Positions 12,376-17,786 of a stretch of DNA of 64,000 nucleotides are shown piece after piece. The notes beneath the pieces are model-generated. The model was not told the origin of the DNA and did not search any database. It saw only the letters and a list, made by a program, of their open reading frames with translations. Each line of letters begins with the position of its first letter. The first letter of the stretch is position 1. The position numbers were made by a program, and so were the translations under genes. The DNA comes from Eledone cirrhosa (Eukaryota). The stretch is taken from positions 43,028,001 through 43,092,000 of the forward strand of contig OZ024740.1 in the NCBI GenBank assembly GCA_964016885.1, written 5' to 3'.

Positions 12376-15300
12376 AATATAGACATAGAATATTCGAAAA
12401 TATTCTGTATGTTTATAATAAACATTTTGAAGACCTAATCGCTATAGAATAGAATACGTCACGTATTACAATTATATTCTCGATAAAAGCAAGGGAAGTA
12501 ATCTACGCGTTTCATTCTCGTTAGAAATCATCAGGACTACATATCCAGTGCTTTTATCGAGAATGACACAGCTAGAGACTTATAGAATACTTAGCTGTGT
12601 ACAGGAACTGGTTTGAAAGAGCGGTTGCCGGTCCGGCAGAAATTAGAAATTGGAATAAATGCTCTGAAATAGCGATATATATGTGAATATAGACATAGAA
12701 TATTCGAAAATATTCTGTATGTTTATAATAAACATTTTGAAGACCTAATCGCTATAGAATAGAATACGTCACGTATTACAATTAGATTCTCGATAAAAGC
12801 AAGGGAAGTAATCTACGCGTTTCATTCTCGTTAGAAATCATCAGGACTACATATCCAGTGCTTTTATCGAGAATGACACAGCTAGAGACTTATAGAATAC
12901 TTAGCTGTGTACAGGAACTGGTTTGAAAGAGCGGTTGCCGGTCCGGCAGAAATTAGAAATTGGAATAAATGCTCTGAAATAGCGATATATATGTGAATAT
13001 AGACATAGAATATTCGAAAATATTCTGTATGTTTATAATAAACATTTTGAAGACCTAATCGCTATAGAATAGAATACGTCACGTATTACAATTAGATTCT
13101 CGATAAAAGCAAGGGAAGTAATCTACGCGTTTCATTCTCGTTAGAAATCATCAGGACTACATATCCAGTGCTTTTATCGAGAATGACACAGCTAGAGACT
13201 TATAGAATACTTAGCTGTGTACAGGAACTGGTTTGAAAGAGCGGTTGCCGGTCCGGCAGAAATTAGAAATTGGAATAAATGCTCTGAAATAGCGATATAT
13301 ATGTGAATATAGACATAGAATATTCGAAAATATTCTGTATGTTTATAATAAACATTTTGAAGACCTAATCGCTATAGAATAGAATACGTCACGTATTACA
13401 ATTAGATTCTCGATAAAAGCAAGGGAAGTAATCTACGCGTTTCATTCTCGTTAGAAATCATCAGGACTACATATCCAGTGCTTTTATCGAGAATGACACA
13501 GCTAGAGACTTATAGAATACTTAGCTGTGTACAGGAACTGGTTTGAAAGAGCGGTTGCCGGTCCGGCAGAAATTAGAAATTGGAATAAATGCTCTGAAAT
13601 AGCGATATATATGTGAATATAGACATAGAATATTCGAAAATATTCTGTATGTTTATAATAAACATTTTGAAGACCTAATCGCTATAGAATAGAATACGTC
13701 ACGTATTACAATTAGATTCTCGATAAAAGCAAGGGAAGTAATCTACGCGTTTCATTCTCGTTAGAAATCATCAGGACTACATATCCAGTGCTTTTATCGA
13801 GAATGACACAGCTAGAGACTTATAGAATACTTAGCTGTGTACAGGAACTGGTTTGAAAGAGCGGTTGCCGGTCCGGCAGAAATTAGAAATTGGAATAAAT
13901 GCTCTGAAATAGCGATATATATGTGAATATAGACATAGAATATTCGAAAATATTCTGTATGTTTATAATAAACATTTTGAAGACCTAATCGCTATAGAAT
14001 AGAATACGTCACGTATTACAATTAGATTCTCGATAAAAGCAAGGGAAGTAATCTACGCGTTTCATTCTCGTTAGAAATCATCAGGACTACATATCCAGTG
14101 CTTTTATCGAGAATGACACAGCTAGAGACTTATAGAATACTTAGCTGTGTACAGGAACTGGTTTGAAAGAGCGGTTGCCGGTCCGGCAGAAATTAGAAAT
14201 TGGAATAAATGCTCTGAAATAGCGATATATATGTGAATATAGACATAGAATATTCGAAAATATTCTGTATGTTTATAATAAACATTTTGAAGACCTAATC
14301 GCTATAGAATAGAATACGTCACGTATTACAATTAGATTCTCGATAAAAGCAAGGGAAGTAATCTACGCGTTTCATTCTCGTTAGAAATCATCAGGACTAC
14401 ATATCCAGTGCTTTTATCGAGAATGACACAGCTAGAGACTTATAGAATACTTAGCTGTGTACAGGAACTGGTTTGAAAGAGCGGTTGCCGGTCCGGCAGA
14501 AATTAGAAATTGGAATAAATGCTCTGAAATAGCGATATATATGTGAATATAGACATAGAATATTCGAAAATATTCTGTATGTTTATAATAAACATTTTGA
14601 AGACCTAATCGCTATAGAATAGAATACGTCACGTATTACAATTAGATTCTCGATAAAAGCAAGGGAAGTAATCTACGCGTTTCATTCTCGTTAGAAATCA
14701 TCAGGACTACATATCCAGTGCTTTTATCGAGAATGACACAGCTAGAGACTTATAGAATACTTAGCTGTGTACAGGAACTGGTTTGAAAGAGCGGTTGCCG
14801 GTCCGGCAGAAATTAGAAATTGGAATAAATGCTCTGAAATAGCGATATATATGTGAATATAGACATAGAATATTCGAAAATATTCTGTATGTTTATAATA
14901 AACATTTTGAAGACCTAATCGCTATAGAATAGAATACGTCACGTATTACAATTAGATTCTCGATAAAAGCAAGGGAAGTAATCTACGCGTTTCATTCTCG
15001 TTAGAAATCATCAGGACTACATATCCAGTGCTTTTATCGAGAATGACACAGCTAGAGACTTATAGAATACTTAGCTGTGTACAGGAACTGGTTTGAAAGA
15101 GCGGTTGCCGGTCCGGCAGAAATTAGAAATTGGAATAAATGCTCTGAAATAGCGATATATATGTGAATATAGACATAGAATATTCGAAAATATTCTGTAT
15201 GTTTATAATAAACATTTTGAAGACCTAATCGCTATAGAATAGAATACGTCACGTATTACAATTAGATTCTCGATAAAAGCAAGGGAAGTAATCTACGCGT

Positions 15301-17786
15301 TTCATTCTCGTTAGAAATCATCAGGACTACATATCCAGTGCTTTTATCGAGAATGACACAGCTAGAGACTTATAGAATACTTAGCTGTGTACAGGAACTG
15401 GTTTGAAAGAGCGGGTGCCGGTCCGGCAGAAATTAGAAATTGGAATAAATGCTCTGAAATAGCGATATATATGTGATATAATTGTAATACGTGACGTATT
15501 CTATTCTATAGCGATTAGGTCTTCAAAATGTTTATTATAAACATACAGAATATTTTCGAATATTCTATGTCTATATTCACATATATATCGCTATTTCAGA
15601 GCATTTATTCCAATTTCTAATTTCTGCCGGACCGGCAACCGCTCTTTCAAACCAGTTCCTGTACACAGCTAAGTATTCTATAAGTCTCTAGCTGTGTCAT
15701 TCTCGATAAAAGCACTGGATATGTAGTCCTGATGATTTCTAACGAGAATGAAACGCGTAGATTACTTCCCTTGCTTTTATCGAGAATCTAATTGTAATAC
15801 GTGACGTATTCTATTCTATAGCGATTAGGTCTTCAAAATGTTTATTATAAACATACAGAATATTTTCGAATATTCTATGTCTATATTCACATATATATCG
15901 CTATTTCAGAGCATTTATTCCAATTTCTAATTTCTGCCGGACCGGCAACCGCTCTTTCAAACCAGTTCCTGTACACAGCTAAGTATTCTATAAGTCTCTA
16001 GCTGTGTCATTCTCGATAAAAGCACTGGATATGTAGTCCTGATGATTTCTAACGAGAATGAAACGCGTAGATTACTTCCCTTGCTTTTATCGAGAATCTA
16101 ATTGTAATACGTGACGTATTCTATTCTATAGCGATTAGGTCTTCAAAATGTTTATTATAAACATACAGAATATTTTCGAATATTCTATGTCTATATTCAC
16201 ATATATATCGCTATTTCAGAGCATTTATTCCAATTTCTAATTTCTGCCGGACCGGCAACCGCTCTTTCAAACCAGTTCCTGTACACAGCTAAGTATTCTA
16301 TAAGTCTCTAGCTGTGTCATTCTCGATAAAAGCACTGGATATGTAGTCCTGATGATTTCTAACGAGAATGAAACGCGTAGATTACTTCCCTTGCTTTTAT
16401 CGAGAATCTAATTGTAATACGTGACGTATTCTATTCTATAGCGATTAGGTCTTCAAAATGTTTATTATAAACATACAGAATATTTTCGAATATTCTATGT
16501 CTATATTCACATATATATCGCTATTTCAGAGCATTTATTCCAATTTCTAATTTCTGCCGGACCGGCAACCGCTCTTTCAAACCAGTTCCTGTACACAGCT
16601 AAGTATTCTATAAGTCTCTAGCTGTGTCATTCTCGATAAAAGCACTGGATATGTAGTCCTGATGATTTCTAACGAGAATGAAACGCGTAGATTACTTCCC
16701 TTGCTTTTATCGAGAATCTAATTGTAATACGTGACGTATTCTATTCTATAGCGATTAGGTCTTCAAAATGTTTATTATAAACATACAGAATATTTTCGAA
16801 TATTCTATGTCTATATTCACATATATATCGCTATTTCAGAGCATTTATTCCAATTTCTAATTTCTGCCGGACCGGCAACCGCTCTTTCAAACCAGTTCCT
16901 GTACACAGCTAAGTATTCTATAAGTCTCTAGCTGTGTCATTCTCGATAAAAGCACTGGATATGTAGTCCTGATGATTTCTAACGAGAATGAAACGCGTAG
17001 ATTACTTCCCTTGCTTTTATCGAGAATCTAATTGTAATACGTGACGTATTCTATTCTATAGCGATTAGGTCTTCAAAATGTTTATTATAAACATACAGAA
17101 TATTTTCGAATATTCTATGTCTATATTCACATATATATCGCTATTTCAGAGCATTTATTCCAATTTCTAATTTCTGCCGGACCGGCAACCGCTCTTTCAA
17201 ACCAGTTCCTGTACACAGCTAAGTATTCTATAAGTCTCTAGCTGTGTCATTCTCGATAAAAGCACTGGATATGTAGTCCTGATGATTTCTAACGAGAATG
17301 AAACGCGTAGATTACTTCCCTTGCTTTTATCGAGAATCTAATTGTAATACGTGACGTATTCTATTCTATAGCGATTAGGTCTTCAAAATGTTTATTATAA
17401 ACATACAGAATATTTTCGAATATTCTATGTCTATATTCACATATATATCGCTATTTCAGAGCATTTATTCCAATTTCTAATTTCTGCCGGACCGGCAACC
17501 GCTCTTTCAAACCAGTTCCTGTACACAGCTAAGTATTCTATAAGTCTCTAGCTGTGTCATTCTCGATAAAAGCACTGGATATGTAGTCCTGATGATTTCT
17601 AACGAGAATGAAACGCGTAGATTACTTCCCTTGCTTTTATCGAGAATCTAATTGTAATACGTGACGTATTCTATTCTATAGCGATTAGGTCTTCAAAATG
17701 TTTATTATAAACATACAGAATATTTTCGAATATTCTATGTCTATATTCACATATATATCGCTATTTCAGAGCATTTATTCCAATTT
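12376..17786. repeat. 310-bp tandem array of hammerhead-containing (retrozyme-like) units: 10 units with HHR on minus, then ~7.4 inverted units with HHR on plus
   Basis: agacatagaa at 12381, 12691, 13001..15171 (period 310); inversion at ~15476; attgtaatac at 15481..17651; flanked by (TA)n. Confidence 0.95.
15699..15787 (+). ncRNA. Minimal type I hammerhead ribozyme (representative of 17 copies)
   Basis: gtagtc-CTGATGA-t-ttct-aacg-agaa-t-GAAA-cgcg-TA-gattac, extended by attctcgataaaagca/tgcttttatcgagaat; predicted cleavage after 15759. Confidence 0.9.

What the first reader, a model, noticed from the sequence alone, without database searches (positions are those of the whole stretch)
12376..17786. 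Near-identical 310-bp hammerhead-ribozyme array: a candidate retrozyme/circular-RNA footprint
Seen: 17 complete copies of a minimal type I HHR (CTGATGA/GAAA/TA, palindromic CGCG stem III, ~16-bp stem I extension) in a unit made almost wholly of hairpins and lacking an ORF. Only two substitutions were noticed (12475, 15414). Known: minimal HHRs with palindromic stem III cleave as dimers, and tandem HHR repeats of this size in animals (newt satellite 2, metazoan non-LTR retrozymes) yield monomeric and circular RNAs. Inference: this is a very young insertion made by rolling-circle reverse transcription of a 310-nt circle, possibly an undescribed family in this lineage.
Basis: partly seen in the sequence, partly recalled or inferred. 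Interest (0 to 1): 0.9.

Follow-up and report, generated by a model that had tools for sequence, protein, structure and literature searches.

The report
Two-armed hammerhead retrozyme insertion
This is one of well over a thousand insertions of a 310-base non-coding repeat carrying a hammerhead ribozyme motif; each lands in a TA microsatellite as two back-to-back multi-copy arms of one shared sequence type, likely because a Penelope-type retrotransposon enzyme copies a small RNA circle round and round from both cut DNA strands.

Summary
Real, but not one tandem array. Two arms (10.0 units on minus, 7.45 on plus, 17 hammerhead cores, 2 substitutions) meet head-to-head, and both outer ends run into (TA)n. 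The genome holds about 17,000 units and 1,200-1,500 insertion ends. In 106 of 107 two-arm insertions with both ends visible, one arm stops at site A and the other about 35 nt further at site B: the Penelope-like-element (PLE) 'tail'. All 172 of 172 locus-fixed variants sit in both arms. There are 37 haplotypes in 100 loci. Transmitted point changes in ribozyme helices keep pairing (7 of 7); singletons rarely do (2 of 25). An intact young PLE in this genome shows the same A+B geometry, but shares no sequence with the unit. Verdict: a non-LTR retrozyme, likely PLE-mobilised, with multimers likely made at insertion from a monomer circle (about 0.6). Three loci point to multimer templates instead. 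Cleavage, expression and circles are untested, and the partner is unidentified. The class is known; this two-arm anatomy was not in the papers I read. This scan noted it before for other retrozyme families, here and in other genomes.

The parts
12376..15476 (-). Left arm, 10.0 units; 3' end at site A (unit position 128, blurred to 139 by the unit's own TA patch), 5' end at position 128
15477..15478 (.). Head-to-head junction of the two 5' ends (2-nt insert)
15479..17786 (+). Right arm, 7.45 units; 5' end at position 30, 3' end at site B (position 167), i.e. carries the tail
15699..15787 (+). One type I hammerhead with distal stem: 16-bp stem, internal loop, 6-bp helix I, CTGATGA (15729), helix II with U-U at its base, GAAA, palindromic ACGCGT, predicted cut after 15759
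15760..16069 (+). Reference monomer, cut site to cut site (unit positions 1-310; GC 34.5%); predicted RNA circle
17750..17786 (+). Tail between sites A and B in the last unit, present at this end only
12338..12375 (.). (TA)n target, left
17787..18007 (.). (TA)n target, right
30961..33053 (+). 5'-truncated copy of a young autonomous PLE family (RT, GIY-YIG, 3' hammerhead at 32859, end in TA). Same A+B integration geometry genome-wide; candidate helper type only, no sequence shared with the unit

Best explanation
This is a dispersed, protein-free hammerhead retrozyme whose insertions are two head-to-head multi-copy arms ending at two fixed sites in (TA)n, likely made when a Penelope-type RT/GIY-YIG enzyme nicks both DNA strands and copies one self-cleaved 310-nt RNA circle several times from each nick. 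Steps: (1) inferred: array transcripts cleave after GUA through dimers paired at the palindromic helix III, and monomers are ligated to circles. (2) inferred from published PLE biochemistry: both target strands are nicked and extended, one starting at site A (about position 130), the other at site B (about 165). (3) shown: arms run past the cleavage site for many units (192 of 212 arms longer than one unit; longest fully seen 8,459 nt) and stop at scattered positions. (4) shown: the 5' ends join with short overlaps or small inserts. (5) shown: each insertion carries one haplotype in both arms; inferred: the template passes a one-unit bottleneck and needs an intact ribozyme fold. PLE-type two-ended integration alone I put at about 0.9; a monomer circle as the usual template at about 0.65.
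For: Geometry: 9 of 9 two-arm loci picked only by the ribozyme core are A+B. Overall 106 of 107 two-arm insertions with both ends seen are A+B, none A+A or B+B; most were picked on one end, so only the partner end is a free test. 203 of 216 outer ends are TA-like. Genome counts of the two ends are similar: 1,476 A, 1,220 B, patterns of unequal stringency. The 30-40 bp one-sided tail, inverted 5'-truncated copy and TA bias are PLE hallmarks (PMC8557442 passages). A purified PLE nicks and extends both strands and starts RT at two internal sites that delimit the tail (PMC11167929). An intact PLE here shows A+B in 7 of 8 two-arm cases, 1 complex. Not fold-back: the two 5' positions are unrelated, 11 of 108 within 10 nt, 7.3 expected. 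Not a cleaved linear monomer: 4 of 218 5' ends lie near the cut site, 8.4 expected. Junction overlap of 2 nt or more in 59% of 49 flush junctions against 18% simulated. Single template: 172 of 172 fixed variants in both arms; 37 haplotypes in 100 loci, 27 seen once; 145 singletons against 17 intermediate variants. Selection: fixed substitutions in ribozyme helices/core 7 kept, 0 broken; singletons 2 kept, 23 broken or core; p=1e-5, or 1e-4 with indels counted as disruptive.
Against: L117, L185 and L067 carry minority variants at the same distance from the 3' end in both arms; a monomer circle cannot give this, and L117 would need a template of about 18 units or later arm-to-arm conversion. In vitro, ribozyme mutants did not impair PLE insertion and unprocessed RNA was the main substrate. 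Older sister families, many with a damaged core, also inserted in two-arm form. Strict catalytic positions alone give no significant signal (0 of 39 fixed, 5 of 145 singleton variants), so the constraint may be on the fold, not on cutting. Two fixed 1-nt insertions lie in helix I. In the 2026 preprint 8 of 9 tested retrozyme dimers did not cleave. No autonomous PLE homologous to the unit was found. Rfam does not recognise the motif.
Confidence: 0.62

Rival explanations
1. Same PLE two-ended integration, but the usual template is a long uncleaved read-through transcript of a source array; the ribozyme fold serves protein binding or RNA turnover.
For: In-register shared minority variants in 3 of 109 insertions. 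[quoted passage not shown] Core-damaged sister families transposed.
Against: At today's singleton density about 43 in-register shared variants would be expected over 97 kb of arm overlap (an upper bound, since sources were younger); 3 loci show any. It does not explain how new mutations become fixed in every unit of 27 one-off haplotypes.
Confidence: 0.22
2. A short PLE-type insertion (about one unit per arm) later grew by unequal crossover, with gene conversion keeping the inverted arms alike: the local-amplification model of the 2026 preprint.
For: Block-like repeated variants in a few long arms (L048, L050, L051, L072) show that some later unequal exchange occurs. Older sister families have short arms, at most 561 nt in 30 loci. 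The model is stated in 10.64898/2026.07.22.740005.
Against: Only 17 intermediate variants against 145 singletons, and 172 of 172 fixed variants shared across inverted arms. 165 of 212 arms exceed two units in a family this young (0.44 singleton changes per kb).
Confidence: 0.1
3. The circle also replicates RNA-to-RNA or moves between species like a viroid, and the genome copies are its footprints.
For: Runs of 18 coded organisms in 17 studies hold 65-100% of its words; haplotype turnover is high.
Against: The 4 runs laid (of 20 holders) each gave one contig at depth 3-10 with sequence types also found in this genome; three have no flanks and the fourth ends in what looks like a restriction-ligation junction (enzyme motif recalled). 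Trace DNA of a high-copy repeat would look the same.
Confidence: 0.04
4. Assembly artefact (palindromic chimeric reads or a collapsed satellite).
For: Near-perfect inverted repeats in TA tracts are hard to assemble; this locus was not checked with reads.
Against: Fixed asymmetric ends, locus-specific junctions and haplotypes in 109 insertions; the same geometry in an autonomous PLE; the head-to-tail join is present in 4 of 4 independent runs laid.
Confidence: 0.02

Closest known systems
Metazoan non-LTR retrozymes (Cervera and de la Pena 2020, PMC7229834: passages and section 15 read; Li, Clavereau and Pollet 2026, 10.64898/2026.07.22.740005: parts 1-3 of 5 read)
   Same: Type I hammerhead in a low-GC 150-450 bp tandem unit without ORF; weak palindromic helix III; U-U at the base of helix II as in axolotl HHR_Amex2; PLEs in the same genome; rolling-circle copying and PLE helpers already proposed.
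   Different: Described there as head-to-tail tandems. 'Inverted' and 'microsatellite' do not occur in the 2020 main text; the preprint has no 'tail' or 'orientation' and 'inverted' only in a reference title. Here both arms are multimers with fixed A/B ends and one haplotype per insertion. Expression and cleavage were shown there and are untested here. Their supplements were not seen.
EN+ Penelope-like elements (Craig et al. 2021, PMC8557442, passages; Arkhipova et al. 2013, PMC3846280, passages; Frangieh et al. 2024, PMC11167929, parts 1-2 of 4)
   Same: Head-to-head inverted 5'-truncated copy, 30-40 bp tail at one end, microsatellite target, two internal RT start sites downstream of the hammerhead.
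   Different: No ORF; the whole element is 310 nt and each arm is a many-lap multimer; no homologous autonomous family found. The self-priming model of PMC3846280 predicts palindromic junctions, whereas the two 5' positions here are unrelated.
Non-autonomous Chlamys/MRC1 PLEs of Chlamydomonas (PMC8557442 and PMC9977147, passages)
   Same: Non-autonomous PLEs, microsatellite targets, often multicopy head-to-tail.
   Different: Lack canonical hammerheads; new insertions of the Chlamys-9/N4 pair had a median length of 128 bp.
Circular-template proposal for PLEs (Cervera and de la Pena 2014, PMC4209133, passages)
   Same: Proposes that hammerhead-made circles template more-than-unit reverse transcription.
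   Different: A proposal there; here supported by locus-level haplotype and selection data, still without RNA evidence.

Membership tests
Non-LTR retrozyme | Type I hammerhead in every unit of a 150-450 bp tandem repeat | tested here: met
   17 cores at 310-bp spacing; pairing and variation. Rfam models do not match.
Non-LTR retrozyme | No protein-coding capacity, GC under 50% | tested here: met
   Longest ATG frame 30 codons; GC 34.5%
Non-LTR retrozyme | Highly self-paired monomer | tested here: met
   60% paired; z -3.9 linear, -3.7 circular
Non-LTR retrozyme | Dispersed, mobile copies | tested here: met
   17,167 units; 1,220 B and 1,476 A ends
Non-LTR retrozyme | Self-cleavage of the RNA | not testable with these tools
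   Only indirect: helix-preserving transmitted variants
Non-LTR retrozyme | Expressed as linear and circular monomers | not testable with these tools
   No RNA run available to lay
Non-LTR retrozyme | Target-site duplication longer than 4 bp when present | tested here: inconclusive
   Both ends lie in (TA)n
Non-autonomous PLE | Head-to-head inverted 5'-truncated copy | tested here: met
   109 two-arm insertions, all divergent; 22 single-arm entries
Non-autonomous PLE | 30-40 bp tail at one end only | tested here: met
   106 of 107 A+B; A mostly at or before 130 or within 131-139, B mostly 165
Non-autonomous PLE | Microsatellite insertion bias | tested here: met
   203 of 216 ends TA-like; partly selected for by the search patterns; 18 of 18 in or beside TA-rich repeats in loci picked by the core
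Non-autonomous PLE | Sequence similarity to the terminal repeat of an autonomous PLE | tested here: inconclusive
   None found in the window, the fetched loci or the one family examined in depth; other PLE families were not surveyed
Non-autonomous PLE | Active autonomous PLE in the same genome | tested here: met
   150 scored copies at 97-100% aa identity; open frames of about 1,240 codons; RT and GIY-YIG hits just under Pfam cut-offs
Plant LTR retrozyme | Type III hammerhead in LTRs | tested here: not met
   Type I topology, tandem units, no LTR pair

The most novel reading that the evidence does not exclude
A genomic record of double rolling-circle target-primed reverse transcription: a PLE dimer primes from both strands at two fixed sites on the same 310-nt ribozyme circle, every insertion is a clone of one RNA molecule, and selection keeps the ribozyme because only cleavable, circularisable RNAs found new arrays. 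This would give the PLE-type hammerhead and the tail a function, and make satellite-like arrays a one-step product of insertion.
Probability: 0.5. Interest if true: 0.75.

Novelty: new member of a known kind. Interest (0 to 1): 0.56.

Why it matters
Two questions are open in the papers read: whether retrozyme arrays arise by rolling-circle copying at insertion or by later local expansion, and what PLE-type hammerheads are for. A young family with over a thousand two-arm insertions lets both be tested by counting: arm sharing, in-register variants and selection on the fold. It also names a minimal 310-nt RNA with two predicted RT start sites, and an intact PLE protein from the same genome, for an in vitro test of circular against linear templates.

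Tried and rejected
Rfam: nothing at gathering score, no hammerhead family to E=10. DNA search of the own genome with the unit returned nothing; the tool skips very common words, so patterns were used. Helper hunt: a relaxed core pattern listed only a subfamily with A at position 287 in its first 100 of 4,054 places; a shared-tail pattern led to non-coding sister families; PLE reading frames near two sister copies shared no intervening sequence and were read as neighbours; the young PLE at 30961-33053 has a tail of about 60 nt, not 35, and no alignable sequence. Fold-back of one arm: rejected. Cleaved linear monomer as template: rejected. Short arms in core-damaged sisters as a natural experiment: confounded, since they are older (85-95% identity between loci) and intact-looking cores also have short arms. 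A>G excess among fixed variants (11 against 6 T>C; singletons 9 against 21; p=0.03) could be RNA editing or tolerated G-U pairs; not used. Sequencing runs: no RNA holder listed; low-depth contigs in 4 other coded organisms do not show presence in their genomes. Raw-read support for ends and copy number is lacking. Literature searches for the two-arm anatomy in retrozymes; none listed a paper whose title or abstract start describes it. The library lacks most subscription papers.
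Full report
Observation. The 310-bp repeat is real, with 17 hammerhead cores and two substitutions (12475, 15415), but it is two arms: 12376-15476 reads on minus (10.0 units) and 15479-17786 on plus (7.45 units), joined 5' to 5' by 2 nt, both 3' ends in (TA)n. Unit positions below count from 15760, the base after the predicted cut. The motif has a 6-bp helix I, CTGATGA, a 4-bp helix II over a U-U pair, GAAA, palindromic ACGCGT, GUA, and a 16-bp distal stem. The two palindromes form a 6-bp duplex of -9.5 kcal/mol, as the dimer model needs (PMC4209133 passages; PMC7229834 section 15). 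The unit folds better than shuffles (z -3.9; 60% paired as a circle) and has no ORF. Rfam does not recognise it.

Family. The genome (3.0 Gb; host not determined) holds 4,226 exact cores of the window's type, 17,167 matches to a 30-mer of the unit, 1,220 B-end plus TA junctions and 1,476 A-end plus TA junctions. I analysed the window and 128 stretches, all on contig C1: 9 picked by the core, 92 covering the rest of the first 100 listed B ends, 7 from other lists and 20 A ends lacking the strict B pattern. Dropped before counting: four older diverged copies and one duplicate pair; L040 was treated as one complex insertion.

Geometry. This gave 109 two-arm insertions, all divergent, and 22 single-arm entries (one old copy, one cut by the fetch, one beside N, three with what looks like a tiny inverted remnant). 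Of 107 with both ends visible, 106 have one arm ending at A (128-139, blurred by the unit's TA patch; most at or before 130) and one at B (163-172, mostly 165); none is A+A or B+B; L165 ends at 154. One end was usually selected for; the 9 two-arm loci picked by the core alone are 9 of 9 A+B. 192 of 212 arms exceed one unit and 165 exceed two; medians 986 (A) and 1,350 nt (B). 5' ends are compatible with uniform (p=0.10) and are not enriched at the cut site (4 of 218, 8.4 expected). The two 5' positions are unrelated. Among 49 flush junctions (88 of 108 could be scored; 39 of them had inserts or nearby variants) overlaps average 1.8 nt against 0.75 simulated.

Comparison with PLEs. An inverted 5'-truncated copy, a 30-40 bp tail at one end and microsatellite bias are PLE hallmarks (PMC8557442; PMC3846280). 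A purified lizard PLE nicks and extends both strands, is predicted to be a dimer, and starts RT at two internal sites that delimit the tail (PMC11167929). The window holds a truncated copy of a young PLE (30961-33053): 150 scored matches at 97-100% identity of 40,882 candidates, frames of about 1,240 codons, weak RT and GIY-YIG hits and a CX4CX2C linker of the kind that PMC8557442 links to microsatellite bias in Neptune elements. Its ends lie in TA at two sites about 60 nt apart (8 and 7 of 15 loci). In 13 stretches that I chose for paired hits or long frames, 7 of 8 two-arm cases are A+B and 1 is complex. It shares no alignable sequence with the unit, so it shows the mechanism, not the helper.

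Template. 'Fixed' means at least 2 copies and 75% of covered units in an insertion, arm ends trimmed. All 172 testable fixed variants lie in both arms. 100 insertions of 3 or more units carry 37 haplotypes, 27 seen once. There are 145 singletons (0.44 per kb, which may include assembly errors) and 17 intermediate variants. A new mutation can fill every unit of both inverted arms only through a one-unit template or thorough homogenisation, and the scarcity of intermediates argues against the latter (inference). In the ribozyme helices and core, fixed substitutions keep pairing 7 of 7 times (position 287 T/A closes helix II in about 4,000 copies), singletons 2 of 25 (p=1e-5; 1e-4 with indels). 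Changes are scored against the window's unit, not an ancestor.

Against. L117, L185 and L067 share minority variants in register from the 3' ends of both arms; L117 switches between two common haplotypes at the same place in both arms. These need a multimeric template or end-aligned conversion between arms; up to about 43 such variants would be expected if all templates were linear multimers as variable as today's arrays. Five further loci share minority variants without clean register, and four long arms show block patterns of later exchange. Strict catalytic positions give no significant signal alone. PLE insertion in vitro did not need cleavage, and sister families about 70% identical, many with a damaged core, inserted the same way with arms of at most 561 nt in 30 loci, though they are older.

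What is known. Non-LTR retrozymes, their circles and the suspicion of PLE helpers are published (PMC7229834); a 2026 preprint adds co-occurrence and pLTR similarity and favours later local amplification. Circles as templates for more-than-unit copying were proposed in 2014. I found no description of paired multimer arms, fixed ends or haplotype sharing in what I read; supplements of these papers were not seen and could show such loci.

Verdict. A new member of a known class whose insertion record tests how such arrays form. PLE-type two-ended integration about 0.9; monomer circle as usual template about 0.65; interest 0.56.

Noticed in passing
window 45022-45534: Older sister retrozyme, 68-71% identical to the unit along its length, again two divergent arms ending near positions 173 and 135; related tails occur at 1,173 forward-strand places in the genome.
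   Followed up: partly
window 59789-63701 and 23930-25025: A second hammerhead repeat family (462-bp period, palindromic ACTAGT helix III); decayed tandem at the first place, two divergent arms at the second; also in L037, L039, L043, L045.
   Followed up: partly
window 12140-12255 and 18008-18122: The array sits between two inverted, 91% identical ends of an older unidentified repeat that face the same TA tract, so the tract was hit more than once.
   Followed up: partly
window 30961-33053; L254-L266: Young high-copy PLE with intact frames of about 1,240 codons, asparagine-rich stretches, a 3' hammerhead and a tail of about 60 nt that is the start of its own reading frame.
   Followed up: yes
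window 4383-8980: PLE with inverted ends whose terminal repeat seems, by eye, to hold a hammerhead with a helix II of about 110 nt (near 8775-8915) and a palindromic helix III.
   Followed up: no
window 19507-21897: Broken PLE with RT-like frames, GIY-YIG and a CX4CX2C linker, followed by an inverted microsatellite-rich terminal repeat.
   Followed up: partly
L051:4136-4407: 272 nt of unrelated GC-rich sequence captured at the junction between the two arms.
   Followed up: no
unit positions 276, 259, 20, 2: A>G changes recur on several haplotype backgrounds, all in stems; RNA editing, tolerated G-U pairs or template recombination.
   Followed up: partly
runs X1-X20: The unit is held by runs of 18 coded organisms; the four laid show single low-depth contigs with this genome's sequence types.
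   Followed up: partly
window 11255-11525: Long near-perfect hairpin repeats left of the array, not classified.
   Followed up: no
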